NCBI GenBank assembly: GCA_964559195.1
Contig: CAZLJB010000001.1
Location: 1 to 40,966, forward strand
Length of the DNA stretch: 40,966 nucleotides
Direction of reading: 5' to 3'
DNA from: an uncultured Anaerolinea sp.
GTDB lineage: Bacteria; Chloroflexota; Anaerolineae; Anaerolineales; Villigracilaceae
This document shows positions 20,515-40,288 of the stretch, in pieces. A model generated the notes under the pieces. The model was not told where the DNA came from. It worked only from the letters and a program-made list of their open reading frames with translations, and ran no database searches. The position numbers and the translations under genes were made by a program. Each line of letters begins with the position of its first letter. The first letter of the stretch is position 1.

Positions 20515-21327
20515 TCACTCTTGCTGCAAATTTATAACTGGAGAGTACCCCAGGGCCGCTGAAATCTGGCCAGTTACATCGAGTAACGCTGGAATAATCT
20601 CCGAATTAAGTCGATCAAAACTGATACGATCAATTGTACCGGTCACATTTACCGCTGCAATCACTCGTCCAGAGATATCTCGGATTGGTGCGGAAACAGC
20701 CCGAAGACCAGATGCAAGCTCTTCATCGTCAATTGCATAACCGTTTTGCCGAGCCAACGCTAAATCAGCGGTCAATTTAGCGGGAGTGGAGACCGTTTTT
20801 GGAGTAAATCCATTTAACGGGTTGCTTTCCAGTAGTTTATTCAATTCATTCTCCGCTAGGTCAGCTAGCAAAATTTTCCCCAAGGATGTGCAATGCGCAG
20901 GAAGGCTGGAACCTACACCAAGCACAACACCCACAATCATTTGGTTTCGAATTCGATCAACATAAATGGTTTGAAAACCATTCAAAACAGCCATGCTGAC
21001 TGTTTCCCCAATACTTTGAGATAGACGTTCCAGGTGTGGGTGAACTAGTTGACGAATTTCGATACCGTTAATTGCTGTAAACCCCAGTTCCAATACTTTT
21101 AAACCTGGTCTATATAATCGAGTCGATGGGTCTTGTTCCAAATAATGCATGGCCTCCAAAGTAGAAAGTACTCGATAGGCTGTGCTTTTGTTTACCTGTA
21201 ATTTCTCAACAATTTGTGTCAGTGACAGTGCCGGGCAAAGAACAGAAAACAACGATAAAACTTCAAGCCCGCGCGCCAAGGCTTCAATATTGTATCTTGA
21301 TTTGAGAGGTCGTACATCTAGTTCCAT
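20515..21327 (-). CDS. IclR-family transcriptional regulator
   Basis: N-terminal HTH LSLTQIVEKLQVNKSTAYRVLSTLEAMHYLEQD plus a C-terminal IclR effector domain. 270 aa. Confidence 0.9.
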   Translation of the reverse strand: MELDVRPLKSRYNIEALARGLEVLSLFSVLCPALSLTQIVEKLQVNKSTAYRVLSTLEAMHYLEQDPSTRLYRPGLKVLELGFTAINGIEIRQLVHPHLERLSQSIGETVSMAVLNGFQTIYVDRIRNQMIVGVVLGVGSSLPAHCTSLGKILLADLAENELNKLLESNPLNGFTPKTVSTPAKLTADLALARQNGYAIDDEELASGLRAVSAPIRDISGRVIAAVNVTGTIDRISFDRLNSEIIPALLDVTGQISAALGYSPVINLQQE

Positions 21328-21557: not shown

Positions 21558-24500
21558 TTATTTAAGCCATTTTGCCAGAAATTTTCCGAGTTCTTCCATT
21601 CGAATAGGCTTGCTAAGATAATCATCCATCCCTGCCTCAATGCACATCGCCTGATCACCAACCATGGCATTTGCAGTAACTGCAATAATTGGGATATGCC
21701 GACCAGTACCGATTTCATGCTTGCGAATTCGTCTTGTCGCTGTTAAACCGTCAATATCTGGCATATTAATATCCATTAATACCAGTGCAAATTCATCAGC
21801 GCGAGTCTCGATCATTTCTATTACTTCCGCACCAGTGGCCACAGATTGCCCAATTAAACCAAAAGTACGAATCTGCTGGATTAGCAAATTTTGGCTAAAG
21901 CCATTGTCATCGGCAATTAACACAGGTTTTTGATCTTGAAATCGTATGGAATACTTGATAGGCTGAGAATTTTTCGCTGTTAGCACATTATCTCCCGAAT
22001 CTGATGAAGTTTTATCAAGCGCGAGAGGCACAGAAAACCAGAATGTTGATCCTTCGCCTTTTTTCGAAATTAAACCTACATCGCCAAACATTAGATCAAC
22101 CAATCGACGCGAAATTGCAAGCCCCAATCCTGTGCCACCATATTTCCTTGTAACTTTATCATCCGCCTGCGTAAAGGGTTCAAACAAGAGTTCACGAATA
22201 TCATCAGAGATTCCGATCCCGGTATCACGAATAGTAAACGTTACCAGCAGAAATCCGTTTGGAATGATGGTTCCATTTATATCGACATCAACTCTGCCTC
22301 TTTCGGTAAATTTAACAGCATTACTCACCAGGTTGATCAGAATTTGGCGAATACGACCTGCATCTCCCAGCAATTTTGAAGGAATGATTGGGGCAATAGT
22401 TACTAACAAAAGGATCCCCTTTTGCTCGGCTTTCGCTCGAAAAAGATCAATGGTTTCCCAAACAAGATTCTTTACATGAAAGGATTCAGACTTTATTATC
22501 AGTTTACCGGCTTCGATTTTCGAGAAATCAAGAATATCATTCAATATTGTGAGTAGGGCCTGGGCAGAATCGCTCACAATTCCTGCAAATTCAAGCTGTT
22601 CATCATTCAGTTCTGTATCTAGTAATAGTTCATTCATACCGATAATGGCATTCATTGGGGTACGTATCTCATGACTCATGGTAGCAAGAAACACGCTTTT
22701 TAAATTCGATGCTTCCACAGCGCGATCTCTAGCCGCAGCCAGATCTTTATTTTTCTTCTCAATTTCTGTTGCGTAAGTTTGCATACGACTGGCAGCTTCC
22801 TGCCGTTCGATTTCCGAGCCAACCCATTGCGCCATCAAATTGATGAAATTTTTATCACCATTAGTAAATGGCCAGCTGCGCCGATCGCGGCTAAAAAATG
22901 AGAGCGTTCCATAATCCATACCAGCAACTCGTACCGGGGACCCCAAATAGGCTTCCACTTTGTGAGACAGGTAGCACGGGTGATTGGCCCAACCACTGGC
23001 TGACGCATTTTCAATACCAATTGGACCACCCTCTCTGAGAGTCTCACGGCTGTACGTTTTCCCTAGCTCAAAATTATCACCCACCTTGATTGATTTATCT
23101 GGAATTTCCACAGCAACAACATGATAATTTTCATTTTCGATAAATGAAAGTATCCCAACCTGCAAACCATACCGCTCAACACCTAGTTGTAAAAACGCCT
23201 GAAGCTTATTCTTAAAAGTATCGTGCTTGGACGCAATATTGTACAATGTGCGGATGGATTCTTCACTTTCGCGCAAAGCAGTTTCAATAGCCCGGCGCTC
23301 GGTTAAATCAGTGACCACATTAATGAAACCAGCCTCCGGATCTTCAATGTTTTTATACACTCCAGTAATTAAAACAAAAACGGTCCCGCCATCTTTTTTT
23401 CGCAAACGTAATTCACACGATAATGGTTCCTGGGCCTGTCTTTGTTCCTGGGCATTCTTAAATAATTCAATATCTTCCGGAACAATCAAATCCAACGAGA
23501 TCATCCCGATTAATTCAACTGGAGCATAGCCAAGCATGCTCGCAAAAGCAGGGTTGACATATTCAAATCGGTTTTTGGAATTTGTTATCGTGAGACCCTG
23601 TCCCATATTATTCATTACCTGGCGGGATAGATCTCGCTGATCTTTTAATTGTGATTCAACTAACTTTCGGGAGGTAATATCCTGTAACAAACCATTTGAA
23701 CCTATAAATTTACCGTTTCCATCCACCACCGGAAAAGATGTGTCCGAAAGCCAGCGGGATTCACCGGTCTTGGTAATAATCCGGTAATCACCACTCCAAA
23801 TTCCACCATTTTCACCACTACGAACACGCGAGCTTGCTTCAATAGCAGGCACTCCGGCGAATTGTCCTCGCATAATAGATTCTTGAATCAGGCTCTTGAA
23901 TACTTCTGGGGTAAGTTCTTCTACGCTAAAACCCGTTAACCGTTCTATCTCTTCTCCAATAAATGGATATTTATTATTGATCGTATCCACACTGTACGGA
24001 ACAGCATCTGCAACATTAATCGCGAGGCGGTAACGGGCTTCACTCTCCCTAAGCGCTTCTTCTGATTGTTTAAGCCGGGTTATATCAGTTCCAATCCCAA
24101 TCAGCAAATCACCTGGGCCTTTGGCATCCGTTAACATGAATATTCGCCAGGTCCCATCCTTGTGTTTTAACCGATGCTCATATGGATTCGCATCTACAAA
24201 AACCATTCCGCCAGCTGCTTGCATGACGTAAGATCGTTCAACGGCGATATCCCCACCGGAAACGCGCTCCATTTCCCACCATCCATCCGCTAATAATTCA
24301 TCCGGCTCGTACCCAAGCAGCCCTTTTACAGATGGGCTTACATATACAATTTTTCCGGCGCTATTGGAAACAAGGACAAGGTTGCCTATCGATTCCAAAA
24401 CAAAGGATGAGAGCTCCCTTTCAGATTGCGAAACAACGCGCTCGGAAAAAACATGTAAGGATGCAATCACCAATTTCTGTCCATCGGCTTCTCCGATGCC

Positions 24501-24788
24501 AAGATATGTATCCAATGAAAACTCGGAATTGTCCTGACGTTTCCAAGCTATGTGCACAGGATCGCCAACAGGATTTTGTATTCTGCCACCCTCAAATATA
24601 TCGCGATATAACTGTTTATATCCGTCAATAAAACGATCCGGGATTAATTGTTCCAGTAGTTTTCCAACTAATTCGCCGGTAGGGTATCTGAATATTCTTT
24701 CAGCCGATTGATTGGCACGGATTATTTGTCCTTCAGTATTAATAAAGAGGACACCATCCGAACTAAGAGACATTAGCAAATCAAGCAT
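21558..24788 (-). CDS. Hybrid sensor histidine kinase/response regulator with multiple PAS and GAF sensory domains
   Basis: H-box MSHEIRTPMNAIIGM, N-box LINLVSNAVKFT, G1 RDTGIGI, G2 GGTGLGLAI, C-terminal receiver LVLMDINMPDIDG...LSKP. About 650 aa of PAS-like repeats and one GAF-like block upstream. No TM segment and no HPt domain seen. Confidence 0.93.
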   Translation of the reverse strand: MLDLLMSLSSDGVLFINTEGQIIRANQSAERIFRYPTGELVGKLLEQLIPDRFIDGYKQLYRDIFEGGRIQNPVGDPVHIAWKRQDNSEFSLDTYLGIGEADGQKLVIASLHVFSERVVSQSERELSSFVLESIGNLVLVSNSAGKIVYVSPSVKGLLGYEPDELLADGWWEMERVSGGDIAVERSYVMQAAGGMVFVDANPYEHRLKHKDGTWRIFMLTDAKGPGDLLIGIGTDITRLKQSEEALRESEARYRLAINVADAVPYSVDTINNKYPFIGEEIERLTGFSVEELTPEVFKSLIQESIMRGQFAGVPAIEASSRVRSGENGGIWSGDYRIITKTGESRWLSDTSFPVVDGNGKFIGSNGLLQDITSRKLVESQLKDQRDLSRQVMNNMGQGLTITNSKNRFEYVNPAFASMLGYAPVELIGMISLDLIVPEDIELFKNAQEQRQAQEPLSCELRLRKKDGGTVFVLITGVYKNIEDPEAGFINVVTDLTERRAIETALRESEESIRTLYNIASKHDTFKNKLQAFLQLGVERYGLQVGILSFIENENYHVVAVEIPDKSIKVGDNFELGKTYSRETLREGGPIGIENASASGWANHPCYLSHKVEAYLGSPVRVAGMDYGTLSFFSRDRRSWPFTNGDKNFINLMAQWVGSEIERQEAASRMQTYATEIEKKNKDLAAARDRAVEASNLKSVFLATMSHEIRTPMNAIIGMNELLLDTELNDEQLEFAGIVSDSAQALLTILNDILDFSKIEAGKLIIKSESFHVKNLVWETIDLFRAKAEQKGILLLVTIAPIIPSKLLGDAGRIRQILINLVSNAVKFTERGRVDVDINGTIIPNGFLLVTFTIRDTGIGISDDIRELLFEPFTQADDKVTRKYGGTGLGLAISRRLVDLMFGDVGLISKKGEGSTFWFSVPLALDKTSSDSGDNVLTAKNSQPIKYSIRFQDQKPVLIADDNGFSQNLLIQQIRTFGLIGQSVATGAEVIEMIETRADEFALVLMDINMPDIDGLTATRRIRKHEIGTGRHIPIIAVTANAMVGDQAMCIEAGMDDYLSKPIRMEELGKFLAKWLK

Positions 24789-24790
24789 TG

Positions 24791-25876
24791 TTATAAATAA
24801 CGCTCCTGGTGATGCTTTTTCAAATGAGCCACCACTGAGCGTACTTGTTGTGATTGATCAGATTTACAAATTAACAGCGCATCACCTTTGTCAACCACCA
24901 CAATATCATCGATACCGATCGTGACGATCAATCTCTCATTACCATTTCCAAAAACCAGGGTATTATGGGTTTCGAGTGCAAGATGTTGGCTGTTTATGGA
25001 AATATTCCCATTCATATCGGGCAGGAGTACTTCGAAAAGCGAATCCCATGAACCCACATCACTCCATCCGAGTCCGCTGGCAGGCAAAACAGCCACCTTT
25101 TCTGCGTTTTCCATAATGCCATAATCAATAGTTTCGACCTTCAAGTCGCCCCACTTTGCCGAAATTACGGCGTCACGATCTTCTGCGGAGGCTTTGCAAA
25201 TTTGATCCAGCACATCATTCAGCGCAGGCATTTGATGTCGAAACTCAGCTAAAATTCGGTCTGTCTTCCAAATGAACATACCACTATTCCAGGAATGATC
25301 ACCGGTCCGGATCAACTGTTGGGCTGTCTTTTCATCCGGCTTTTCAGTGAAGCGTTTGACAGTATAAACCGGATAATTAAATTTCTCCTGGATCAACAAG
25401 GCTTGCTGAATATAACCATACGCTGTTGAAGGAAAGGTAGGTGTTATTCCCAGGGTAACCAGGTAATCCAATTTTGCAACCTCAAAAGCGGTCCTCATCA
25501 AGTAATCGAAAAGGTCAATGTTACGAATATGGTGATCGGAAGGCAAAATTGCCATAATAGCTTGCGGATCACGTTGATGCAAAATTGCGGCTGCCAGACC
25601 CACCACTGAGGCAGTACCGCGAGGTCCTGGCTCGATTAAGTAGTTTTCAGCTGGAATGGTCGGAACCTGGTCTCTGATTTCTGCCATTTGGTCTTCGACC
25701 GTAACAATTAATATTCGTTCCGGTGGAAAGAGATTACGCAAACGGGATACAGTGCTCTGCAATAATGTTTCTTCCCCCAGTAACGGGAGAAGCTGCTTGG
25801 GTTTATTCTTCCGGGAAACAGGCCATAACCTGGTTCCACCACCACCAGCCATGATCACAGCATAAGAATGTTCCAT
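24791..25876 (-). CDS. manC: Mannose-1-phosphate guanylyltransferase (GDP-mannose pyrophosphorylase)
   Basis: AVIMAGGGGTRLWPVSRKNKPKQLL nucleotidyl-transferase loop, YGYI, WNSGMFIW. 361 aa with no PMI/cupin extension. Its stop lies 2 nt before the kinase start. Confidence 0.85.
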   Translation of the reverse strand: MEHSYAVIMAGGGGTRLWPVSRKNKPKQLLPLLGEETLLQSTVSRLRNLFPPERILIVTVEDQMAEIRDQVPTIPAENYLIEPGPRGTASVVGLAAAILHQRDPQAIMAILPSDHHIRNIDLFDYLMRTAFEVAKLDYLVTLGITPTFPSTAYGYIQQALLIQEKFNYPVYTVKRFTEKPDEKTAQQLIRTGDHSWNSGMFIWKTDRILAEFRHQMPALNDVLDQICKASAEDRDAVISAKWGDLKVETIDYGIMENAEKVAVLPASGLGWSDVGSWDSLFEVLLPDMNGNISINSQHLALETHNTLVFGNGNERLIVTIGIDDIVVVDKGDALLICKSDQSQQVRSVVAHLKKHHQERYL

Positions 25877-25917: not shown

Positions 25918-27174
25918 TCATCTCGAGATGGAAATTAATTTGTACTCATTGACCAGGTAATAAATTAATAATAATGTGAATAGTACCGCCATCACAATAA
26001 CCTGCACCCAAACCACCTGGGCCAGGGTCGCGTGGAAAAAGATAATTCCCAGCACTTGCGCAACACCAGCTGCTATTACAAATCCGGTGCTTTTCCCTGC
26101 ACCCAATGAAAGTCGATAATTAACGAGCACGTTCGCCAGCGCATAAAGGGAGGTGGCGAGAGCATACAACCAGAGCAGTGTGGCAACGCCCAAATATTGT
26201 TTTCCAAAAAGGATACTTACAATCCACTCTGGAAAGGATAAGGTTAGCAGCACCACCGGTAAGGAAATCGAGGTCACAATCCCCAATGATAGCCAAAGCA
26301 AGTAGGTGTGGGGTTCACCCTTTTTATGTTTTTGCGCCACAATTGGGAACATCGTAGTCACAACCGACCAGGTTGCAAAAAATACTATTCGACCGATCAA
26401 TGCCAGGGCGGCATATTGCCCTGCCAGCTCAGCCGGGAAAAAGCGCTTTACCAACAGAACATCACTATTATTAATTAATATTTGTCCAAGTTGAGAAACC
26501 AATACCGGCAATGCAAACAAACTTAAGGTTTTCTGCATTTTCTTATCTGGAAACACTCCGGCAGGCAAACCCTTTACCGCCAGTTTCGCGGTCAACCACG
26601 TCAGTACAAATGACAAACTGATGCCAAACACTGCGCCCACAATTGAAAAGCCCAACAAAACAAGACCAATTCCAATTAAGAAGCGCGTCCACATTTCAAC
26701 CTGATAGGTTAAGGCCAAAACCCCAAAACGAGTCTGCCCCTGCAGAACTCCTCGTTCTACTCCCTGAAGCAGGCTAAAAGGAAGTGCGATGCCAAATACT
26801 ATAAACGGGATGGCAGATGCAGTATTAAAAAACGTTTGCCAGAAGGCAGCCCCAATCGCAAACACGGTAACCAATAGCAGCCCAAACCCAAACCCAACTC
26901 GTTCCGCCCACTTTAAAACCCCCGCCAAGGCTACCGAATCTCCATCCGCAGTATATATGGCTGCATAACGGGCTGTAGTCATTTGAAGCGGAACAGTAAT
27001 AAAGGTAATAACCAACAGCAAAGTGACAATAAGTGATAAATCGGCAAACATAGCCGGACCAAGCCAGCGTCCGAGGATCAGGTTATAAATATAATTGCCA
27101 GCATTGACGACGGTCATGCTAATCATCAAAATCAAGCCGGCAGAAGTAATCGAACGGTTATTTTCTGATTTCAT
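25918..27174 (-). CDS. Polysaccharide/oligosaccharide flippase (MOP/Wzx-like)
   Basis: About 12-14 TM helices spread over about 420 aa, a layout typical of Wzx/MurJ-type exporters. ATG 27174 chosen; an in-frame GTG at 27198 is an alternative start. Confidence 0.78.
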   Translation of the reverse strand: MKSENNRSITSAGLILMISMTVVNAGNYIYNLILGRWLGPAMFADLSLIVTLLLVITFITVPLQMTTARYAAIYTADGDSVALAGVLKWAERVGFGFGLLLVTVFAIGAAFWQTFFNTASAIPFIVFGIALPFSLLQGVERGVLQGQTRFGVLALTYQVEMWTRFLIGIGLVLLGFSIVGAVFGISLSFVLTWLTAKLAVKGLPAGVFPDKKMQKTLSLFALPVLVSQLGQILINNSDVLLVKRFFPAELAGQYAALALIGRIVFFATWSVVTTMFPIVAQKHKKGEPHTYLLWLSLGIVTSISLPVVLLTLSFPEWIVSILFGKQYLGVATLLWLYALATSLYALANVLVNYRLSLGAGKSTGFVIAAGVAQVLGIIFFHATLAQVVWVQVIVMAVLFTLLLIYYLVNEYKLISISR

Positions 27175-27234
27175 GGATCCCGATTTTTCTTCCACCACTG
27201 ACTTTCGAAAATTAGTAGTAAATTGGGTTTAAGG

Positions 27235-27597
27235 TTAGGCGAGAGCAGCTTCTACTGTTTCGAGCAGAATACGCGAACTTGACGGTTTTGTTAAAAAGCC
27301 GCGGACACCAATTTGCGCAGCAGCCGCCATTTCCTGATCATCGCCACTGGCAGTCAGGATAATAACAGGCAGTTGGAGTAATTCATTATCGGTGCGAATC
27401 AAGCGCAACAAACTGAGACCATCCATTACCGGCATGGATAAATCCAAAATGGCAAGGTCAACCGGCGATTTATGCAAAATATCCAATCCACTCTGCCCAT
27501 TGGATGCAATCAGGACTGTATAACTGGCTTTCCGTAGCGTATAGCTAAGAATCCGTTGATTGTTTGAGTCGTCATCAATAATCAAGATTGTGGTCAT
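27235..27597 (-). CDS. Stand-alone response-regulator receiver (CheY-like)
   Basis: DDD acidic pocket (8-10), phospho-acceptor D52 in AILDLSMP, T82 in ILTAS, K104 in LTKP. 120 aa, no output domain. Confidence 0.9.
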   Translation of the reverse strand: MTTILIIDDDSNNQRILSYTLRKASYTVLIASNGQSGLDILHKSPVDLAILDLSMPVMDGLSLLRLIRTDNELLQLPVIILTASGDDQEMAAAAQIGVRGFLTKPSSSRILLETVEAALA

Positions 27598-27642
27598 AGG
27601 CCGGGTGAGTTCCAGGGTATGGCTTGAAAGAAAACAAACATT

Positions 27643-27987
27643 CTAAAAAGCCTTCGGGATAATTTGGGAAGGATCGATCGAAGTAAATACCTGATCAAAC
27701 TTTGTCAGCTTGAGAATTCGCGCAGCAGCTTCTTCGCGCGGCCATACCAGGCGAACATCTCCGCCCCCGATGCGTGTTCGTTTTAAGGCGCTAACCAATA
27801 CGGCCAGACCAGCCGAATCAATCATTTTAACATCCGTTAGATTGAATACCAGATGAATTACACCCGCATCAATAAACTCATCACAAATCTTTCGTAATGC
27901 TGGTGCATCAAAGGCATCCAAACGACCGGAAAGAACGATCGAAACAATTTTGATAATGTGTTCGGTGGGAAAAATTTGTAAAGACAC
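27643..27987 (-). CDS. STAS-domain anti-sigma-factor-antagonist-like protein (copy 2)
   Basis: VKMIDSAGLAVLVSALK with conserved Ser58 in DSAG, and ILKLTKFDQVF C-terminal helix. GTG start with an AAGGAG RBS 5 nt upstream. Confidence 0.85.
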   Translation of the reverse strand: MSLQIFPTEHIIKIVSIVLSGRLDAFDAPALRKICDEFIDAGVIHLVFNLTDVKMIDSAGLAVLVSALKRTRIGGGDVRLVWPREEAAARILKLTKFDQVFTSIDPSQIIPKAF

Positions 27988-28048
27988 AATAACTCCTTAT
28001 GCCATAGGTGCCAATTATTAAATAATCTTCGTTGAATTTTTCAGGACG

Positions 28049-28456
28049 CTATGATAGTTTCTTCATCAGTGTCCATTTATTTTGGTCGCCAGTTCTCTGA
28101 TAATCCATTTTATCAACCAGTAATTGTATTATTGCCATACCATACCCGCCCACGGCCAGACCGGTGGGATCTGGCATTGTAATTGCATCAAAATCAAGAA
28201 TCGCAGGTACCCCGCTGTCAAATGTTTGAATATTCAACACATCCTCGTTGATACTCAAATCAATTATGATGGAACCGTTTGGGTCGCCACGATAAGCATG
28301 ATCCACCAAATTAATAAGAAGTTCATGCAATGCCAATTCGCATCCACTGACAAGTTCATCCGAAATTTTTGTTTCGAGTAGGATGGAACGCAGGTTTTCA
28401 TCAGCGACGCGGATTTCTGGATAGGTAGATTTTATAACTATTTGTCTATTGTTCAT
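28049..28456 (-). CDS. RsbW/SpoIIAB-type serine protein kinase (anti-sigma-like, HATPase_c_2)
   Basis: N-box ELALHELLINLVDHAY, G-box FDSG and GGYGMAIIQLLVDKMDY. 135 aa. Start is 2 nt after the phosphatase stop. Confidence 0.85.
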   Translation of the reverse strand: MNNRQIVIKSTYPEIRVADENLRSILLETKISDELVSGCELALHELLINLVDHAYRGDPNGSIIIDLSINEDVLNIQTFDSGVPAILDFDAITMPDPTGLAVGGYGMAIIQLLVDKMDYQRTGDQNKWTLMKKLS

Positions 28457-28458
28457 GA

Positions 28459-29979
28459 TTAAATTATCTTGATAACAATGATAGTACGATCATCATCTTG
28501 AGAAAGGCCGCTAGAGAAATCACTCGTAGCCTCAAAGATTAGGGCGCCAATTTCTACGGAAGATCGCTGCCGGGATGAATCCAATAATTTCAATAATCTA
28601 TCATATCCAAACATTTCTCCTTCAGAATTATGCGATTCCGGGAATCCATCAGAGGCCGCAATAAAAATATCGCCGGGCGATAACGCCAGTGTGTAGGATG
28701 AATAATCGTAAGCCCCGAATATTCCTACCGGTATATCCTGCGCTTCAAGCAAAACAGGAACATTATTTACTGGCACGTACAATATGGGACTTTGTCCTGC
28801 ATTACAGTAAGACAGACTTAACGAAGATCGATCCAGAATACCAATAAATGCCGTTGTGAACATTCCCACAGTAGAGAAATCGTCCAGAAGATCAGCATTC
28901 AATCTTTTCATCAACTGATGGGGTTCAGTGAAAGGCATATTTCGCGCCGCAGACCGGGCAACCGTCCGAGTCATACTCATTAATAAAGCTGCCGGCATGC
29001 CTTTTCCAGTCACATCTCCCAATAGAAAAATTAGGGGCTGGTTTGGCAGTAAAACAATATCAAAAAAATCACCCCCCACTTCTAGGGCAGGGTTTGATGT
29101 AGCATAAAAATCAACACCTGGCACCAGAGGTAGCTTTTGGGGAAGTAAGGCAGTTTGAACCTGGTGAGCCAGACTCAATTCAGTTTCAAGGCGGGTTCGA
29201 GCCAAGGCCTCCTGAACGAGAAGGAAATTTTCTATCTGGGCACCGGCCTGTCCAGCCAGCGCTTTTGCAAGTTTGATATCGGGTGTAGTGAATTCAATAT
29301 TTTTATTAAAAACACCCAGAGCTGCAAAGATGTCTTCCTTGATAGGAATAGATACCATCATGAGGTTTCTCAAACCTGCAGGCAGATTTGCCAGATCCTT
29401 AAAATTGTGCTGTTCTGGGTTGTTCCGGTAATAAGTAGAAATAACCACAATCTCATCATTCGTCAATGGATTAATCCCAAACTGACAAACAATTGCTGCC
29501 TGACCAGGCTGTAGCATAATCGCAAATGCACCATTGACATCCAGAAGTCTGCAAGCTTCACTGACAAGTAATTCAAATAGTGCTGAACTTTCCAGACTAT
29601 TTTGGGGCGATTTGCTCAGGTCATAAAGCGCCACAAGTCGGTCCTGGGTTTCAACCAGGGCAGCCGTCAGACTTTCAAGCTCTGCTTCATTATTTAGAAG
29701 GCTCGAAAATAATTCAGCCATTGTGTCAGCGAAGGATTGCCAAAATTCACCAGTAAGACCATATATCTGAATTGCAAGTCCATATTCAGAACCAGACATT
29801 AATGGAAACCCGGTCGGATTTACGTCCATTGGATAGGAACCAATAATTCGATCCTTATCAACCAGGCGAACACAAATAGCGCCAGCGCGAATGCAAATTG
29901 CTGCGATGGCATGAAATCGGCTTTGATGATTGACAAATGAATCAAAAAGCATAGGGACTGAAAACCTATCCGAGATCAA
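28459..29979 (-). CDS. GAF-domain-containing PP2C (SpoIIE/RsbU-type) serine phosphatase
   Basis: SpoIIE-domain motifs GGDFFDIV, GDVTGKGMPAALLMS, YCNAGQSP, SDGFPES, DDRTIIVIKI. An N-terminal region of about 270 aa is GAF-like. TTG 29979 overlaps the upstream stop (TTGA); ATG 29952 is an alternative start. Confidence 0.9.
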   Translation of the reverse strand: MISDRFSVPMLFDSFVNHQSRFHAIAAICIRAGAICVRLVDKDRIIGSYPMDVNPTGFPLMSGSEYGLAIQIYGLTGEFWQSFADTMAELFSSLLNNEAELESLTAALVETQDRLVALYDLSKSPQNSLESSALFELLVSEACRLLDVNGAFAIMLQPGQAAIVCQFGINPLTNDEIVVISTYYRNNPEQHNFKDLANLPAGLRNLMMVSIPIKEDIFAALGVFNKNIEFTTPDIKLAKALAGQAGAQIENFLLVQEALARTRLETELSLAHQVQTALLPQKLPLVPGVDFYATSNPALEVGGDFFDIVLLPNQPLIFLLGDVTGKGMPAALLMSMTRTVARSAARNMPFTEPHQLMKRLNADLLDDFSTVGMFTTAFIGILDRSSLSLSYCNAGQSPILYVPVNNVPVLLEAQDIPVGIFGAYDYSSYTLALSPGDIFIAASDGFPESHNSEGEMFGYDRLLKLLDSSRQRSSVEIGALIFEATSDFSSGLSQDDDRTIIVIKII

Positions 29980-30305
29980 CTTTGGAGCGCAGACTTTTCA
30001 TCAGGGTAAATCGTAAACGCTTTATCCAACCTTGTAAGTTCGAATATTACTCTGACGGGTTGCTGAAGTGCACACAAAGAAAGTTCACCACCCTTTTCGC
30101 GACAATGTTTCAGGCCCTGTACCAGAGTTGAAAGTGCGGAAGAATCAACAAAATTTACATCCGCCAAATTAACCACCAGATGAGTCTGGCCCAAATCGAA
30201 CTGCTCCTTTAACCAGTCACGCACTGGCCCAACTTCATGAGCATCAAAACGACCTTTCAGATATAAAATGGGAATATTTCCCTGAGACGATTTTTTTATT
30301 TCCAT
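29976..30305 (-). CDS. STAS-domain anti-sigma-factor-antagonist-like protein (copy 1)
   Basis: LYLKGRFDA, VNFVDSSALSTLVQGLK with Ser55 in DSS, IFELTRLDKAF. 109 aa. Confidence 0.88.
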   Translation of the reverse strand: MEIKKSSQGNIPILYLKGRFDAHEVGPVRDWLKEQFDLGQTHLVVNLADVNFVDSSALSTLVQGLKHCREKGGELSLCALQQPVRVIFELTRLDKAFTIYPDEKSALQS

Positions 30306-30352: not shown

Positions 30353-31540
30353 TTACTTCCGTTTTAACAATTCTTGAAAGTGAATCAAATACCAATCCAC
30401 CACATCATTAATCGGCAAACCATTTGCCGCCAGAAAATTACGAGTTCCAATTTCCAATTGCCGATCCGGGTAGTCAATCACACGAGAAATTGCATCTGCC
30501 AGGCTTTTTGAACTTGTTGCTTCAAAGAATTCGCCATCATAACCTTCCTCCAACACCAGCTCGGCTAAATCTCCCAGGTTTGGTAGCACTACCGCCTTTC
30601 CATAACCACCAGCCTGGTGTAAGACACCAGAACTACCCGTAGTACTTGTATATGGAAAAACAACCACCCAGGCGTCTCCGAAAATTCTCGGCACATCTTC
30701 TTCCGAAACGTATCCGGTAAAATGTAGGTTTGACAAATGAGAAAATTGAGCCTTAACTCCATCCAGGTAGCCTTTCATATTCGGGCTATCGGTCCCAGCG
30801 ATCACAAGTCTTGCGTCCGGGTGAGTAGGAAGTAGCATCTCAAATGCCTCGGCTAAAATCTCCACTTTTTTATAGGTGCCAAATTTCCCAAAGGTCATGA
30901 TATTTGGTACACCGCCTGGCATGCTATTCGGTTGAATGTCAGTGGATTCCTCAAATGAGCCGTGTGGTGCAAGGATTACATTTCTTGCACCATATTTTTT
31001 CTCCAGGATTTCGACATATTTCGGGATTGTTACTGCAACCAAATCTACGGATAATAGAAACCGCGTTACGATATTGCCAAACATCCGTATAAGATTTTCT
31101 ATGATGATATTTCCACCAAAGCCAGCGGATTTCAGATTAACTGTCTCCACAATGTTATGAAGCAGCACCACCGTACTGTAACCAGCATTTTTTACCAACC
31201 AGGGGGTTAATAAGCCCAGGGTAGCAGGAATTTTTTTATCAGCAAAAGATGCAAACTGAATATTGAACAACACGATGTCTGGATTTACCTGGCGCACGAC
31301 CTCTCGAATTCGAAACGCATTATTCAAAGCGCCAAACTTCCAGCATGGAATAAAACGTACAGGTATGGAATTTGCATCATCTATTTGTGGATAAGCCTGC
31401 CCTTCTGGGAGCTCATCAACCAACAAAACTAATTCGGTGACACTCTCAACTTTCAAACGTAGAAAGCGCACAAAATGATAAGCATATTCATTTAATGATC
31501 CCTTGGATGGTGGGTGAGCAGTTACCATGGCTATGCGCAT
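30353..31540 (-). CDS. Glycosyltransferase family 4 (GT-B, group 1)
   Basis: MRIAMVT start. The C-terminal half has the GT1/GT4 nucleotide-sugar-binding region (FPYTSTTGSSGVLHQAGGYGKAVVLPNLGDLAELVLEEG). 395 aa. Confidence 0.86.
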   Translation of the reverse strand: MRIAMVTAHPPSKGSLNEYAYHFVRFLRLKVESVTELVLLVDELPEGQAYPQIDDANSIPVRFIPCWKFGALNNAFRIREVVRQVNPDIVLFNIQFASFADKKIPATLGLLTPWLVKNAGYSTVVLLHNIVETVNLKSAGFGGNIIIENLIRMFGNIVTRFLLSVDLVAVTIPKYVEILEKKYGARNVILAPHGSFEESTDIQPNSMPGGVPNIMTFGKFGTYKKVEILAEAFEMLLPTHPDARLVIAGTDSPNMKGYLDGVKAQFSHLSNLHFTGYVSEEDVPRIFGDAWVVVFPYTSTTGSSGVLHQAGGYGKAVVLPNLGDLAELVLEEGYDGEFFEATSSKSLADAISRVIDYPDRQLEIGTRNFLAANGLPINDVVDWYLIHFQELLKRK

Positions 31541-31551
31541 ATTTTTACTCC

Positions 31552-32316
31552 TTAACGATAGACGCCCTTAAAATCGTTCGCCCAGATCACTGAAATGTCA
31601 CGCAAAAAACGCTGGACTTCTTTTTTTGTATTGACCTTTGAGCCTGGAGCATCGATCCATGAGACTGGCACTTCGGCGATTTTATAACCAAATTTATAAG
31701 CAAGATACAGGATTTCCAGGTCGAACGAAAAGCCCATAATGGTTTGTTTACCGTGCAGCTTTTTAGCGACTTCAGATGTATACATTTTAAAACCACATTG
31801 CGTATCCTTGACCCCAATATGCATCAAATACTTTACTATCAGGCGCAAACCTCCGCTCAAAATCCTGCGCAGCAGGGATTTCTTACCTTCGTCTGCACCT
31901 TCTGCAGCACGCGACCCGACTGCCAGATCATAACCATCCTGATCAAGTTTCGCCAACAATTTCGAGACTTCTTCAATGGGAGTCGAATTATCAGCATCAG
32001 CAAATAAAATATATTTCCCACGCGCTGCCAGCATTCCCCTTCTGACAGCACTGCCTTTTCCTCCATTCCTAGGAGTTCTTAAAACCGTCAAATTGACCAG
32101 TCCCAAATCCTCGCACAGTTTTGCGGTCTGATCTTTCGATCCATCGTCCGCAATCAACAATTCCCATGCAAAACCCAAATCTGAGACGTGTGATGCGATT
32201 GCTCCGATTGATGTAATAATCCGGTCTTGTTCATTATAGGCCGGAATTACAATCGACAGATACGGAGATTCGACAAGCGGTGTTGTTTTCCATTTAACAT
32301 AATTTTCGTATGGCAT
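31552..32316 (-). CDS. Glycosyltransferase family 2, polyprenyl/dolichyl-phosphate hexose synthase-like
   Basis: LSIVIPAYNEQDRI, ADDGSKDQT, FADADNS (DxD), QCGFK. Short (254 aa) soluble GT-A enzyme, as in Ppm1/DPM1/ALG5-type enzymes. Confidence 0.85.
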   Translation of the reverse strand: MPYENYVKWKTTPLVESPYLSIVIPAYNEQDRIITSIGAIASHVSDLGFAWELLIADDGSKDQTAKLCEDLGLVNLTVLRTPRNGGKGSAVRRGMLAARGKYILFADADNSTPIEEVSKLLAKLDQDGYDLAVGSRAAEGADEGKKSLLRRILSGGLRLIVKYLMHIGVKDTQCGFKMYTSEVAKKLHGKQTIMGFSFDLEILYLAYKFGYKIAEVPVSWIDAPGSKVNTKKEVQRFLRDISVIWANDFKGVYR

Positions 32317-32357: not shown

Positions 32358-33521
32358 TCATGCAACAAAAATCCAATTCACAAAAATTGTCACAAACATA
32401 CCGAGCAAGACAGCAAAACAAATCAGCATTGTCCGATCGACACTCTCCCGGCGACCCCACCAACCCAATAGCATAAATGCGGGAAATGACGTCAAAACAT
32501 ATCGGATAATGCTGCTTGTTGCACTTGCTGAAGGTATTAACAGTATCAATAAAACAAAGATTGCATAACCTTCTCCCAGTCGAATCCAGATAAACGGAAC
32601 CATCACTAGGAAAGCCAGAAGGGTGGTTGTATTCCAAAAGTTAGTCATCCAGCTTTTATTGACCGTTGTACTCAATAATAACTTAATGTTTTGAACAATT
32701 ACAGACACAGGGCCAACGTTTTGCCGGCCCCAGGCCGCCTGGGTCTCAATAAAAGCCAGTGGGCGCTCGAAGTTTCTCTGCAAAAAATAGATATATGCAA
32801 TCAAGCCAAGTGGAATAATTGCAATAATTAATAAATCGAACCAATGCTCCCGAAAACCATGCAGCAGATTGGTCCAACTTTCCTTCTTATGCAATGTTTT
32901 CAAAGACCAACCCTGAACACGCAGCCACTCCCATATCACCAACGGCCACAAAAGAACACCCAGGTTTCGAGTGGCAGCCGCCAACATGCCAATTAAGGCC
33001 GCCGCAATCCACATTTGCCGGCGAGCATAATACATGGTTGCCAGGGCAAAAAGCAAAAACAGACTCTCGGTATAAACACTGCTGAAATAAAAGGAAGTTG
33101 GAAATAATGCCAGGTAAAAAACCGTTCTTTTGGCCGAGTCGCTGTCAAGTTCAAGTTCTGTTAATTTATATAAAAAAAACAATGCCCCTAAAAAGGCAAC
33201 ATTACTGAGCAAGAATCCAGCCAGAATTACATCATCCCCAACCAGAGGTGCCGTAAGCCGCATAAGAAGCGGGTATACTGGAAAAAATGCAACATTACTT
33301 TGTTGCTCAGGGCGGTACCAATAACCGTTCTCGGCAATATCAACATAGTATTGGCTGTCCCACTTGGCCCACATCGATAAAAAAGGTGAGTTCAGATTTG
33401 CTATCCAATGACCCGCGTCTGTGGGAAGCATTAAATCTCCCGCCATACCCACGCTAAATATTAATAGGCGCGATACCAGGAAAGCCAAAAGGGGGAGTAC
33501 CATCCATTTATAGGATTTCAT
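32358..33521 (-). CDS. PIG-V-like GT-C membrane glycosyl(mannosyl)transferase
   Basis: About 10 TM helices. The first extracytoplasmic loop has WDSQYYVDIAENGY...VAFFPVYPLLMR, the motif I associate with the PIG-V (GT76-like) family. ATG 33521 overlaps the upstream stop (ATGA); the track ORF extension to 33587 lies inside the upstream gene. Confidence 0.68.
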   Translation of the reverse strand: MKSYKWMVLPLLAFLVSRLLIFSVGMAGDLMLPTDAGHWIANLNSPFLSMWAKWDSQYYVDIAENGYWYRPEQQSNVAFFPVYPLLMRLTAPLVGDDVILAGFLLSNVAFLGALFFLYKLTELELDSDSAKRTVFYLALFPTSFYFSSVYTESLFLLFALATMYYARRQMWIAAALIGMLAAATRNLGVLLWPLVIWEWLRVQGWSLKTLHKKESWTNLLHGFREHWFDLLIIAIIPLGLIAYIYFLQRNFERPLAFIETQAAWGRQNVGPVSVIVQNIKLLLSTTVNKSWMTNFWNTTTLLAFLVMVPFIWIRLGEGYAIFVLLILLIPSASATSSIIRYVLTSFPAFMLLGWWGRRESVDRTMLICFAVLLGMFVTIFVNWIFVA

Positions 33522-39110: not shown

Positions 39111-39157
39111 ATTTCTGGGTCTCAATCAAGGTAAGCCAACGGACCCAATATCCGGTG

Positions 39158-40288
39158 TTACTGAATTTTCGCGCGAATTTCAGCAAAATAAGCATCCAAT
39201 TCACCGCGTAATTCCCTGCTGCGCTTTACAAGGTGCTGTTGTATATTTTCCCGATTTAAAATGACAGTTTTAATTCCAACAAGCAGCGTCTCCGCTAAAA
39301 ATGGTTGGTTGATGTTCAAACTGTGCTCTGACATACCAAGGTAGTCAACCAATTCCTGCACTTTAACATCATAAACCAAACCAAAAAATGGTTTTCCCAG
39401 GATCGAAGAAATAACCAGTGTATGCAGGCGCTCGGCCAAAACCAGGTCACAGCTTGAAATAATTTCACCCGCTTCCTGAGCAGTTTGTGGATCATGAACA
39501 ACAAATGAAATGTCTGGAATTCGCTTTGCAAATTCTTTTAAGACGGATAAATCGTCATTCGCTTTAAATTTACTTTGCATCGGCAGCGCATGAATAGTAA
39601 TGGGTTTTTCCGCATTGAGTCTGGTCAAGCAGTCAGCCAGGTTTTGTAAAAAACCTTCCCATGCCTCCCGGTTTTCGATATCAAAATTCAAATTAAGCGC
39701 CAGGTGAAGCCTACCAGTCGGGTAAGCAGACACTCTACCCGGCGTAAATACTTCAGGGGAATTCGCAAAAACTGCATCAGGCACCCTGCGCATTTTTTCA
39801 GGATTGATCTTTAATCTCTGGCAGGTTTTATAGGATTTATCATCCCGAACAGAGACAAAATCCACCTGTGTAAGGATCATCCGTGCCAGGCGATCCCCTC
39901 CAGCCGAAAGCAAAGGCCCCACACCAATATTACTCATGATTACTTTTTTTCGGGCAACCAACTTTGTAAATGTAACGGACGCCAAAATCATCAGCAACGT
40001 CGAATATCGATTACGCCCCACGCTGGCATATAATTCCTTGATAATACTGCCCCCGCCGAAAAATAAAATATCACTGGTTAATAAATGGCGCAAAAAGCGT
40101 GGCAGCTCCCTGGTAGTGTGAAAAGACTCCACATCATAATTCGGTCTTAGATAAGATGTGGTAAATTCAGGATCGTAGGAATTGACTGCATAATGATGCT
40201 CCCGCCCCAACTGGGCCAAAAAAGTCTCCAGAAGCAGTTCATCTCCAATATTAAATTGTCCATGTGTGCCCAGGAAGGTTATTTTCAT
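39158..40288 (-). CDS. Polysaccharide pyruvyl transferase family protein (CsaB/WcaK/EpsO type)
   Basis: MKITFLGTHGQFNIGDELLLE N-terminal motif and C-terminal AERLHTLVISSILGKPFFGLVYDVK motif typical of the pyruvyl-transferase family. 376 aa. First gene of the cluster. Confidence 0.82.
   Translation of the reverse strand: MKITFLGTHGQFNIGDELLLETFLAQLGREHHYAVNSYDPEFTTSYLRPNYDVESFHTTRELPRFLRHLLTSDILFFGGGSIIKELYASVGRNRYSTLLMILASVTFTKLVARKKVIMSNIGVGPLLSAGGDRLARMILTQVDFVSVRDDKSYKTCQRLKINPEKMRRVPDAVFANSPEVFTPGRVSAYPTGRLHLALNLNFDIENREAWEGFLQNLADCLTRLNAEKPITIHALPMQSKFKANDDLSVLKEFAKRIPDISFVVHDPQTAQEAGEIISSCDLVLAERLHTLVISSILGKPFFGLVYDVKVQELVDYLGMSEHSLNINQPFLAETLLVGIKTVILNRENIQQHLVKRSRELRGELDAYFAEIRAKIQ

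What the first reader, a model, noticed from the sequence alone, without database searches (positions are those of the whole stretch)
27235..30305. Partner-switching module with no sigma factor (2 STAS, RsbW-type kinase, GAF-PP2C phosphatase, orphan receiver) inside a glycan-assembly operon
Seen in sequence: five consecutive minus-strand genes encode STAS (DSS, Ser55), GAF-PP2C (GGDFFDIV, GDVTGKGMP), an RsbW-like kinase (ELALHELLINLVDHAY, GGYGMAI), a second STAS (DSAG, Ser58) and a CheY-like receiver (D52/T82/K104). Junctions are a 4-nt overlap, then gaps of 2, 61 and 45 nt. A GT4/GT2/GT-C block lies directly upstream and a flippase, manC and hybrid kinase directly downstream, all on the same strand. 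No ORF in the 41-kb window looks like a sigma factor.

Established knowledge: RsbW/SpoIIAB-type kinases classically sequester a sigma factor. Outputs other than a sigma factor are documented in only a few systems. These are Vibrio fischeri SypE/SypA inside the syp polysaccharide locus, Pseudomonas HptB-HsbR-HsbA, and Bordetella BtrUVW.

Inference: STAS phosphorylation state gates the neighbouring glycosyltransferase or export machinery post-translationally. The architecture differs from SypE, where kinase, REC and PP2C are fused and there is one STAS. Here all modules are separate, the phosphatase has a GAF input, and there are two STAS outputs. The direct target of the STAS proteins is unknown, and that is the open biology.
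Basis: partly seen in the sequence, partly recalled or inferred. Interest (0 to 1): 0.85.

Follow-up and report, generated by a model that had tools for sequence, protein, structure and literature searches.

The report
Sigma-less STAS phospho-switch in glycan operon
A five-gene protein-phosphorylation switch of the kind that normally controls a sigma factor sits inside a cell-envelope sugar-polymer operon of a Chloroflexota bacterium, is kept there across the phylum, and most likely switches the sugar-building enzymes on and off directly; this extends to a second phylum a mechanism shown experimentally only in cyanobacteria in 2026.

Summary
Five minus-strand genes encode STAS-A, an N-domain/GAF-PP2C phosphatase, an RsbW-type kinase, STAS-B and a single-domain receiver. 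They lie between GT-C/GT2/GT4 genes and a flippase, ManC and a PAS/GAF hybrid kinase. The window holds no sigma factor.

The order GT2-GT4-STAS-A-PP2C-kinase-STAS-B-REC-flippase recurs in Anaerolineae, Chloroflexia and Caldilineae. In a STAS-B-seeded metagenome survey, 22 of 27 loci with enough flank had GT4 in the expected place.

Natural fusions tie the parts together: PP2C+kinase, REC+PP2C, STAS-A+STAS-B and GT2+GT4. The fused STAS pair stays beside GT2/GT4 even where kinase, phosphatase and REC are absent. A paralogous Chloroflexota cluster encodes a TagA/WecG glycosyltransferase fused to two STAS domains.

An Anabaena study (June 2026) showed the same logic for a STAS-fused glycosyltransferase and called it lineage-specific.

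The most likely mechanism is hybrid kinase to REC to PP2C/kinase balance to STAS Ser55/Ser58 phosphorylation, which controls the GT2/GT4 machinery post-translationally. The direct target is unproven. A minority of paralogues lie in signalling-only contexts. An unlinked sigma factor cannot be excluded. I rate this a new variant of a known kind, interest about 0.6.

The parts
29976..30305 (-). STAS-A: single-domain STAS protein (109 aa) with phospho-acceptor Ser55 in the motif FVDSS
   Evidence: Pfam STAS 1.7e-20. TIGR00377 anti-sigma-factor antagonist superfamily 2.5e-22. The D-S motif is kept in 24 of 25 type-1 orthologues, with one D-T exception.
28459..29952 (-). PP2C (SpoIIE-type) phosphoserine phosphatase with an N-terminal alpha/beta domain, a long helix and a GAF-like domain (497 aa; an alternative TTG start at 29979 gives 506 aa)
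   Evidence: Pfam SpoIIE 3.3e-40 and sub-threshold GAF. Catalytic Asp/Gly residues are invariant in 16 orthologues. AF2 pLDDT 82.7. Best Foldseek matches are SiaA-PP2C, RssB, SpoIIE and Rv1364c. GAF is detected in 8 of 16 orthologues.
28049..28456 (-). RsbW/SpoIIAB-type GHKL serine kinase (135 aa)
   Evidence: Pfam HATPase_c_2 2.9e-16. Closest solved structures are RsbW 6m36 and SpoIIAB. N-box, G1 and G2 motifs are conserved in orthologues. The kinase is fused to the C-terminus of the PP2C in many orthologues.
27643..27987 (-). STAS-B: second single-domain STAS protein (114 aa) with phospho-acceptor Ser58 in the motif IDSAG
   Evidence: Pfam STAS 1.9e-14. D57 and S58 are invariant. It is found fused to STAS-A in P0252, P0254 and P0259.
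27235..27597 (-). Single-domain receiver (CheY-like, 120 aa), the probable input to the phosphatase
   Evidence: Pfam Response_reg 5e-28. D52, T82 and K104 are invariant in orthologues. In variant loci the REC is fused to the N-terminus of the PP2C, for example L154 at 376 aa.
30353..31540 (-). GT4-family (Glycos_transf_1) glycosyltransferase, always directly upstream of STAS-A; candidate target
   Evidence: Pfam. It is 55-87% identical and adjacent in type-1 loci. It is fused to GT2 in L089.
31552..32316 (-). Soluble GT2 resembling polyprenyl-phosphate sugar (mannose) synthases; candidate target
   Evidence: Pfam Glycos_transf_2. Best NCBIfam hits are PpgS, AglJ, ArnC and Dol-P-hexose transferase, all below the equivalog cut-offs. 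Closest solved structure is Dol-P-Man synthase 5mlz, E 8e-18. No TM helix. It is 63-85% identical across classes.
32358..33587 (-). PIG-V-like GT-C membrane mannosyltransferase (7 predicted TM helices)
   Evidence: Pfam Mannosyl_trans2 9.4e-14. Hydropathy analysis.
33518..36163 (-). 881-aa protein with one N-terminal TM helix and a 3-keto-disaccharide-hydrolase/LamG-like domain
   Evidence: Conserved in the cluster.
36231..39125 (-). 964-aa membrane protein with 11 TM helices and a large soluble C-terminal part, possibly GT-C-like
   Evidence: No Pfam or NCBIfam hit. Hydropathy analysis. A 1060-aa protein at the corresponding position in the L088 cluster has a weak PTPS_related hit; its similarity to this protein was not confirmed.
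39158..40288 (-). Polysaccharide pyruvyl transferase (CsaB-like), first gene of the array
   Evidence: Pfam PS_pyruv_trans 5e-35. TIGR03609 CsaB 6e-42, below its cut-off.
25918..27198 (-). MOP-family (Polysacc_synt) flippase with 10 TM helices, directly downstream of REC
   Evidence: Present downstream of the module in 20 of 35 surveyed loci.
24791..25876 (-). ManC, mannose-1-phosphate guanylyltransferase (GDP-mannose supply)
   Evidence: Pfam NTP_transferase plus ManC_GMP_beta-helix.
21558..24788 (-). PAS/GAF hybrid histidine kinase with a C-terminal REC, the probable cognate kinase of the stand-alone REC
   Evidence: Pfam. In many related loci a PAS histidine kinase directly follows the REC gene.

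Best explanation
This is a sigma-independent, partner-switching-type phospho-switch dedicated to an envelope glycan pathway that appears to be mannose-based.

Proposed flow:
1. The PAS/GAF hybrid histidine kinase phosphorylates the stand-alone receiver on D52.
2. The receiver, together with the N-terminal/GAF region of the phosphatase, sets the balance between the PP2C phosphatase and the RsbW-type kinase. These two work as one bifunctional unit.
3. That balance sets the phosphorylation of Ser55 of STAS-A and Ser58 of STAS-B, which act as a pair.
4. By analogy with SypA and All4160, the unphosphorylated pair binds and permits the cytoplasmic glycan-initiating enzymes to work, and phosphorylation switches synthesis off. 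The enzymes are the soluble polyprenyl-phosphate-sugar synthase-like GT2 and the GT4, or possibly the flippase.

Shown here: the domains, their catalytic and acceptor residues, the conserved gene order, the natural fusions and the lack of a linked sigma factor. Inferred: who phosphorylates whom, the direction of the effect and the identity of the target.
For: - Domains and active-site or acceptor residues are present and conserved.
- Fourteen co-directional genes have gaps of at most 67 nt and no intergenic terminator-like site.
- GT2-GT4-STAS-A-PP2C-KIN-STAS-B-REC-flippase is conserved in Anaerolineales, Herpetosiphonaceae, Oscillochloris, Chloroploca, Chloroheliaceae, Caldilineaceae and Roseilinea. 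There GT2 is 66-72% identical while PP2C is only 35-39% identical.
- In the STAS-B-seeded metagenome survey, 22 of 27 loci had GT4 in place and 20 of 35 had the flippase.
- Rosetta-stone fusions: PP2C+kinase, REC+PP2C, STAS-A+STAS-B and GT2+GT4.
- The fused STAS pair remains next to GT-C/GT2/GT4 in loci that lack PP2C, kinase and REC.
- A paralogous module is adjacent to TagA/WecG-STAS-STAS fusion proteins. The search gave 2168 significant hits, and all of the 120 best carry both domains. The D-S motif is invariant.
- No sigma factor is present in the window or in type-1 loci. A Chloroflexia genome carries a separate canonical STAS-kinase-sigma trio.
- Experimental precedent: Anabaena All4160 (STAS-Bac_transf) is inactivated by Ser74 phosphorylation by an RsbW-like kinase and reactivated by the REC-SpoIIE phosphatase HenR (PMC13555669). 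SypE/SypA control Syp polysaccharide at an unknown non-sigma level (PMC8256260, PMC11112999).
Against: - There is no direct evidence for any protein-protein contact or phosphorylation.
- No natural fusion of a type-1 GT2, GT4 or flippase with STAS was found, so the target is only inferred from adjacency.
- Some paralogous modules sit in signalling-only neighbourhoods without glycan genes. These are STAS-PP2C-KIN-REC-HHK, and HK-(KaiC)-PP2C-KIN-STAS-B-REC-HHK.
- A few loci keep the flippase but not GT2/GT4 next to the module, such as L150 and L168.
- The rest of the genome could not be searched for a sigma factor. The sigma search used ECF-type seeds and could miss other groups.
Confidence: 0.6

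Rival explanations
1. Classical anti-sigma switch. The RsbW-type kinase sequesters a sigma factor encoded elsewhere in the genome. Unphosphorylated STAS proteins release it, and it transcribes this glycan operon, so control is transcriptional.
For: The kinase's closest solved relatives are RsbW and SpoIIAB. Both STAS proteins hit the anti-sigma-antagonist superfamily model. Chloroflexia do have STAS-kinase-sigma trios. The genome outside the window could not be searched.
Against: No sigma factor is linked in the window or in any type-1 locus. The kinase is often fused to the phosphatase. The STAS pair stays with GT2/GT4 when the kinase is absent from the locus. STAS domains are fused to a glycosyltransferase in the paralogous system.
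Confidence: 0.15
2. True partner switch with a non-sigma partner of the kinase. The kinase itself binds and inhibits a glycan enzyme (GT4, GT2 or the flippase). Unphosphorylated STAS-A/B compete for the kinase and free the enzyme.
For: It has the same comparative support as the main model for coupling to glycan genes. It follows the canonical logic of RsbW-type proteins.
Against: The fused STAS pair is retained beside GT2/GT4 without any kinase in the locus. In WecG-STAS-STAS and All4160 it is the STAS domain, not the kinase, that is attached to the enzyme (PMC13555669).
Confidence: 0.12
3. Stressosome-like or relay module. STAS-A/B hold the kinase. On signal the kinase is released and activates the PP2C, as RsbT activates RsbU. 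The PP2C then acts on an unlinked STAS/kinase/sigma set, and its position in the glycan operon reflects only co-expression.
For: The module has two STAS proteins and one small kinase of 135 aa, the size of RsbT. The PP2C has an N-terminal regulatory region.
Against: Neither STAS protein has an RsbR-type N-terminal sensor domain. Permanent PP2C+kinase fusions in orthologues make release-and-capture unnecessary. There is no RsbX-type second phosphatase and no downstream RsbV/W/sigma.
Confidence: 0.05
4. No functional coupling. This is a general signalling cassette that happens to be inserted in a glycan operon.
For: Paralogous modules occur in non-glycan contexts.
Against: The insertion point between GT4 and the flippase is kept across classes at 35-40% PP2C identity, in 22 of 27 independently seeded loci. 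The STAS pair co-segregates with GT2/GT4.
Confidence: 0.05

Closest known systems
Anabaena sp. PCC 7120 HenR / Alr3423 / All4160 (PMC13555669, 2026)
   Same: An RsbW-like Ser kinase and a SpoIIE-type PP2C antagonistically set the phosphorylation of a STAS Ser that controls a polysaccharide-biosynthetic glycosyltransferase without a sigma factor. A receiver domain feeds the phosphatase. Some Chloroflexota variants even have the same REC-PP2C fusion. The paralogous Chloroflexota cluster has a GT-STAS fusion.
   Different: - In the window both STAS proteins are stand-alone and there are two of them.
- The phosphatase carries an N-domain/GAF instead of a fused REC.
- All components are encoded together inside the glycan operon, whereas in Anabaena they are scattered.
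- The fused enzyme in Chloroflexota is TagA/WecG (C-terminal double STAS), not Bac_transf (N-terminal single STAS).
- The phylum is different.
Vibrio fischeri SypE / SypA in the syp polysaccharide locus
   Same: A STAS protein with its kinase and PP2C activities is encoded inside a polysaccharide locus. A receiver domain and a hybrid-kinase phosphorelay act as input. The output is not a sigma factor and the target is unknown (PMC8256260, PMC11112999).
   Different: SypE is one polypeptide (kinase-REC-PP2C) with one STAS partner. Here there are four separate genes plus a second STAS, and a GAF-like input. Sequence orthology was not tested.
Pseudomonas aeruginosa HptB-HsbR-HsbA (from my own knowledge of the literature)
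   Same: The REC, PP2C and RsbW-type kinase activities act on one STAS protein whose output is not simply a sigma factor. The PP2C-then-kinase domain order matches the Chloroflexota fusions.
   Different: HsbR is a single REC-PP2C-kinase protein fed by an Hpt protein. No Hpt domain is found in the window. The HsbA outputs are FlgM and a diguanylate cyclase, not a glycan operon.
Bacillus RsbV-RsbW-SigB / SpoIIAA-SpoIIAB-SigF partner switches, and M. tuberculosis Rv1364c
   Same: The same three protein families and the same conserved Ser and kinase motifs. Rv1364c is a solved example of a PP2C-kinase fusion and is a structural match.
   Different: There is no cis-encoded sigma factor. The module has two STAS proteins and a separate REC, and it is embedded in glycosyltransferase genes.

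Membership tests
Partner-switching system (STAS / RsbW-type kinase / PP2C) | Single-domain STAS protein with the conserved phosphorylatable Ser | tested here: met
   Pfam and TIGR00377 hits. D-S is invariant at Ser58 of STAS-B. At Ser55 of STAS-A it is kept in 24 of 25 orthologues.
Partner-switching system (STAS / RsbW-type kinase / PP2C) | GHKL Ser kinase of the RsbW/SpoIIAB family with N, G1 and G2 boxes | tested here: met
   HATPase_c_2 2.9e-16. Aligns to RsbW 6m36 and SpoIIAB. Motifs are conserved.
Partner-switching system (STAS / RsbW-type kinase / PP2C) | SpoIIE/RsbU-type PP2C phosphatase with metal-binding Asp residues | tested here: met
   SpoIIE 3.3e-40. D295, D313, D435, D487 and D488 are invariant. 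Fold matches.
Partner-switching system (STAS / RsbW-type kinase / PP2C) | A sigma factor as the kinase's alternative partner, classically encoded in the same operon | tested here: not met
   No Sigma70 domain in the window ORFs scanned. jackhmmer found none in the window or in type-1 loci. An unlinked sigma factor could not be tested.
Partner-switching system (STAS / RsbW-type kinase / PP2C) | Phosphorylation-dependent exchange of binding partners | not testable with these tools
   Needs biochemistry or complex prediction.
SypE/SypA-type polysaccharide-locus switch | STAS protein and its kinase and phosphatase encoded inside a polysaccharide biosynthesis locus | tested here: met
SypE/SypA-type polysaccharide-locus switch | Kinase, REC and PP2C fused in one protein (SypE architecture) with a single STAS partner | tested here: not met
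   These are separate genes in the window. Orthologues show only the pairwise fusions PP2C+KIN or REC+PP2C. There are two STAS proteins.
SypE/SypA-type polysaccharide-locus switch | Sequence orthology to SypA/SypE | not tested
   No Syp sequences were compared.
HenR/All4160-type STAS-fused glycosyltransferase switch | STAS domain covalently fused to the regulated glycosyltransferase | tested here: not met
   The window STAS proteins are 109 and 114 aa and stand alone. The feature is met only in the paralogous Chloroflexota cluster, as WecG-STAS-STAS.
HenR/All4160-type STAS-fused glycosyltransferase switch | REC-SpoIIE phosphatase | tested here: not met
   The window phosphatase has an N-domain/GAF and the REC is a separate gene. 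REC-PP2C fusions exist in variant loci such as L154.
HenR/All4160-type STAS-fused glycosyltransferase switch | RsbW-like kinase acting on the STAS Ser, with no sigma factor as output | tested here: inconclusive
   The kinase is present and no sigma factor is linked. The activity and the output were not tested.
Stressosome (RsbR/RsbS/RsbT) | RsbR-type protein with an N-terminal sensor domain plus STAS, and a downstream RsbU/V/W/sigma or other output module | tested here: not met
   Both STAS proteins are single-domain. There is no second phosphatase, second kinase or sigma factor in the window.
HptB-HsbR-HsbA | Hpt phosphotransfer protein feeding a REC-PP2C-kinase fusion | tested here: not met
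   No Hpt domain was found in any of the window ORFs scanned. REC, PP2C and kinase are separate genes.

The most novel reading that the evidence does not exclude
STAS-A and STAS-B form a heterodimeric, phosphorylation-gated regulatory subunit. This subunit docks onto the soluble polyprenyl-phosphate-mannose-synthase-like GT2 / GT4 pair and licenses initiation of an envelope glycan.

This would be the first defined direct target of stand-alone 'SypA-type' STAS proteins. It would also show that phospho-STAS control of glycosyltransferases, in trans here and in cis in TagA-STAS-STAS, is an ancient strategy across Chloroflexota rather than a cyanobacterial speciality.
Probability: 0.35. Interest if true: 0.75.

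Novelty: new variant of a known kind. Interest (0 to 1): 0.6.

Why it matters
The target of stand-alone, non-sigma STAS proteins such as SypA has been an open question for over a decade. This Chloroflexota system narrows the candidates by comparative genomics alone to the GT2/GT4 pair, with the flippase less likely, and it offers natural fusions that can be tested directly.

It also contradicts the recent suggestion that phospho-STAS control of polysaccharide enzymes is specific to cyanobacteria. A search seeded with one TagA/WecG-STAS-STAS protein gave 2168 significant hits, and all of the 120 best carry both domains. A conserved trans-acting version also exists in Chloroflexota.

Chloroflexota envelopes are poorly understood. 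This conserved operon, apparently polyprenyl-phosphate-mannose dependent and under signal control, is a handle on how these filamentous bacteria remodel their surface.

Tried and rejected
- **Foldseek of the whole PP2C model.** It returned only PP2C-domain matches. The N-terminal domain (residues 1-64) and the long helix (69-118) remain unassigned.
- **Promoter and terminator scan.** Promoter-like sites were fewer than in shuffles. All terminator-like sites lie inside genes. The scan shows only that there is no obvious intergenic terminator.
- **Word-indexed homologue search with the kinase.** It gave only nine hits, so the phosphatase was the better seed.
- **Is linkage universal for the wider PP2C family?** No. 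The STAS-PP2C-KIN-REC-HHK operons L023, L030, L040 and L045 are flanked by TPR, GNAT, Ada and PBP genes. An HK-KaiC-HK-PP2C-KIN-STAS-B-REC-HHK class has no glycan genes.
- **Search for a fusion of STAS to a type-1 GT4, GT2 or flippase.** None was seen among the 150 best STAS-B relatives or in the loci.
- **Stressosome and Hpt relay models.** Considered and rejected; see the membership tests.
- **AF2 of the WecG-STAS-STAS fusion.** It gave pTM 0.72 with a disordered linker. The tool returns no contacts, so it says nothing firm about how STAS meets the enzyme.
- **Complex prediction for STAS with GT4 or GT2.** Not possible with the tools available.
- **Source organism.** It could not be named. 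The cluster look-up returned no accession or name. The closest named relative is a Chloroflexota MAG from Lac Pavin (L006).

Full report

Yes. The five minus-strand ORFs lie at the stated coordinates. Each hits the expected Pfam family well above threshold:
- STAS-A, 29976-30305: STAS, 1.7e-20.
- Phosphatase, 28459-29979: SpoIIE-type PP2C, 3.3e-40.
- Kinase, 28049-28456: HATPase_c_2, 2.9e-16.
- STAS-B, 27643-27987: STAS, 1.9e-14.
- Receiver, 27235-27597: Response_reg, 5e-28.

The GAF call is sub-threshold in this protein (20.4 bits against a cut-off of 22.4). It is backed by GAF hits in 8 of 16 orthologues (best E 9.6e-9). It is also backed by an alpha/beta domain at residues 122-222 of a confident AF2 model (pLDDT 82.7).

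One detail differs. The 4-nt overlap between STAS-A and the phosphatase assumes the TTG at 29979. Gene callers and the N-termini of orthologues point to the ATG at 29952, which gives 497 aa and a 23-nt gap.

**2. The neighbourhood.**

Fourteen co-directional genes run from 40288 down to 21558. Gaps are at most 67 nt and there is no intergenic terminator-like site. In order they are:
- a CsaB-like pyruvyl transferase;
- a 964-aa protein with 11 TM helices;
- an 881-aa single-TM protein with a LamG-like domain;
- a PIG-V-like GT-C;
- a soluble GT2, whose best solved relative is Dol-P-mannose synthase 5mlz (E 8e-18) and whose best NCBIfam hits are polyprenyl-phosphate sugar synthases;
- a GT4;
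- the five-gene module;
- a MOP flippase;
- ManC;
- a PAS/GAF hybrid histidine kinase.

From the known chemistry of these families, this looks like a pathway in which GDP-mannose feeds a cytoplasmic GT4 and a polyprenyl-phosphate-mannose synthase. GT-C enzymes would then extend the glycan outside the membrane. That reading is inference.

None of the window ORFs scanned against Pfam carries a sigma-70 domain. A jackhmmer search seeded with two Pfam-verified sigma factors from related loci found none in the window. The seeds were ECF-type, which limits sensitivity.

**3. Who has it?**

The phosphatase has more than 1400 homologues. Those that carry a source name are all from Chloroflexota or Anaerolineales MAGs.

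A scan of one genome per species, using a phosphatase alignment, returned 80 loci. I mapped all window proteins onto them by tblastn and blastp. The window's arrangement, which I call type 1, is GT2-GT4-STAS-A-PP2C-KIN-STAS-B-REC-flippase. It occurs in:
- the close Anaerolineales clade, where the whole cluster is syntenic;
- Herpetosiphonaceae, Oscillochloris, Candidatus Chloroploca and Chloroheliaceae;
- Caldilineaceae and Roseilinea.

In those distant lineages GT2 stays 66-72% identical and GT4 55-63% identical. The phosphatase is only 35-39% identical and the kinase about 31%.

That survey was seeded on the phosphatase, so I repeated it in metagenome contigs seeded on STAS-B. Of 27 loci with enough upstream sequence, 22 have GT4 in the expected position. 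Of 35 with enough downstream sequence, 20 have the flippase and 10 have a histidine kinase instead.

**4. Natural fusions.**

Several natural fusions (Rosetta-stone evidence) tie the parts together.
- **PP2C + kinase.** In many type-1 orthologues they form one protein of 636-655 aa. They therefore act as one bifunctional unit, as in HsbR and Rv1364c. Rv1364c is also a structural match.
- **REC + PP2C.** In L154 and relatives a REC is fused to the N-terminus of a short PP2C (376 aa) and the separate REC gene is gone. The REC therefore feeds the phosphatase, as in HenR.
- **STAS-A + STAS-B.** An exhaustive search with STAS-B against 1.84 billion representatives found double-STAS proteins of 220-280 aa among its closest relatives. 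The three I read (P0252, P0254, P0259) are STAS-A-like followed by STAS-B-like. The two therefore work as a pair.
- **The STAS pair stays with GT2/GT4.** In two contigs the fused pair sits directly after GT-C, GT2 and GT4, with no phosphatase, kinase or REC within 10 kb.
- **GT2 + GT4.** In a third contig GT2 and GT4 are fused into one 676-aa protein. The fused STAS pair, PP2C, kinase, REC and a PAS kinase follow.

The constant partner of the STAS pair is thus the GT2/GT4 block, not the kinase.

**5. A paralogous system with STAS fused to a glycosyltransferase.**

In Chloroflexus, other Chloroflexales, Ardenticatenaceae, Thermoflexales and some Anaerolineae, a second module (STAS-PP2C-KIN-REC) lies directly after this gene series: GT2, Bac_transf, a 500-aa TagA/WecG glycosyltransferase carrying two C-terminal STAS domains, and an NTP-transferase-Bac_transf fusion.
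- This fusion family is large. The search gave 2168 significant hits, and all of the 120 best carry both Pfam domains.
- It includes cultured Chloroflexus islandicus and Oscillochloris trichoides.
- It is annotated only as 'WecB/TagA/CpsF family glycosyltransferase'.
- Its first STAS domain keeps an invariant D-S. The second keeps Ser in at least 90% of 40 members.
- Profile scores put the first domain nearer STAS-A. The second is slightly nearer STAS-B.
- The enzyme part is a close TagA/TarA match: 38% identity, TM 0.92.

The same Chloroflexia contig also carries a separate, canonical STAS-kinase-sigma trio 8 kb away. These bacteria therefore keep sigma-linked and glycan-linked switches apart.

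**6. What is known.**

A Molecular Microbiology paper of June 2026 (PMC13555669) reports the following for Anabaena:
- All4160, a STAS-Bac_transf glycosyltransferase, is switched off by Ser74 phosphorylation by the RsbW-like kinase Alr3423.
- It is switched on by the REC-SpoIIE phosphatase HenR.
- No sigma factor is involved.
- The authors state that such fusions are rare outside cyanobacteria and call the strategy lineage-specific.

SypE/SypA in Vibrio fischeri control Syp polysaccharide at a still unknown level (PMC8256260; PMC11112999). Full-text searches found no paper on partner switching in Chloroflexota or on TagA/WecG-STAS fusions.

**7. Most likely mechanism (confidence about 0.6).**

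1. The hybrid kinase phosphorylates the REC.
2. The REC and the GAF-like region tune the PP2C against the kinase.
3. The net result is the phosphorylation state of Ser55 and Ser58.
4. By analogy with SypA and All4160, the unphosphorylated STAS pair allows the GT2/GT4 initiating enzymes to work, and phosphorylation stops them.

The soluble GT2 lacks the membrane helices of its closest solved relative. A regulatory or anchoring partner is therefore plausible.

Shown: domain content, conserved catalytic and acceptor residues, conserved order, the fusions, and the lack of a linked sigma factor. Inferred: substrate relations, the sign of the effect, and the target.

**8. Evidence that cuts the other way.**

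- Some paralogous modules are self-contained signalling operons with no glycan genes nearby.
- A few loci keep only the flippase, or only the GT-C, next to the module.
- No GT2, GT4 or flippase fused to STAS was found for type 1.
- The genome beyond this contig could not be searched, so a distant sigma partner of the kinase remains possible (rival, about 0.15).
- A version in which the kinase rather than the STAS pair contacts the enzyme is also open (about 0.12).

**9. Verdict.**

The principle is no longer new, but this trans-acting, two-STAS, operon-embedded form in a second phylum is undescribed in the searchable literature. So are the widespread TagA-STAS-STAS fusion and the series of natural fusions. 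I rate it a new variant of a known kind, with interest about 0.6.

Noticed in passing
L086:6364-7878 (Chloroflexia bacterium SDU3-3) and P0130-P0249: A large, unremarked family of TagA/WecG glycosyltransferases with two C-terminal STAS domains. It lies next to a paralogous STAS-PP2C-kinase-REC module and includes cultured Chloroflexus and Oscillochloris species.
   Followed up: yes
L086:19377-21095: A canonical STAS / HATPase_c_2 / Sigma70 trio lies 8 kb from the glycan-linked module on the same contig. Sigma-linked and glycan-linked switches therefore coexist.
   Followed up: partly
L047:7439-8566 (also about L151:7672): A PHP-domain protein, possibly a CpsB/YwqE-type phosphatase, is fused to a C-terminal STAS domain inside a rearranged type-1 glycan cluster.
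   Followed up: no
L140, L157, L167, L130 (between REC and the flippase): One or two additional RsbW-like kinase genes follow the REC gene in some type-1 loci.
   Followed up: no
L165:102-12346: A signalling-only relative: HK, a KaiC-like ATPase, HK, PP2C, kinase, STAS-B, REC and a hybrid HK, with no glycan genes.
   Followed up: partly
L168:156-4949: A 1597-aa protein with ice-binding-like and CBM30 domains lies directly upstream of a STAS / REC-PP2C / kinase / STAS-B / flippase array that lacks GT2/GT4.
   Followed up: no
window 29952-29979: The phosphatase start is ambiguous. A TTG at 29979 overlaps the STAS-A stop by 4 nt. An ATG at 29952 leaves a 23-nt gap. Orthologue N-termini agree with the ATG.
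   Followed up: yes
window 19404-19922 and 20515-21327: MarR-like and IclR-family regulators lie just downstream of the hybrid kinase on the same strand. The IclR gene is syntenic in the closest relative, L006. Whether they regulate the operon is unknown.
   Followed up: no
window 36231-39125: A 964-aa protein has 11 TM helices and a large soluble C-terminal part but no Pfam or NCBIfam hit. It is conserved in the cluster and may be an undescribed GT-C-like enzyme.
   Followed up: partly
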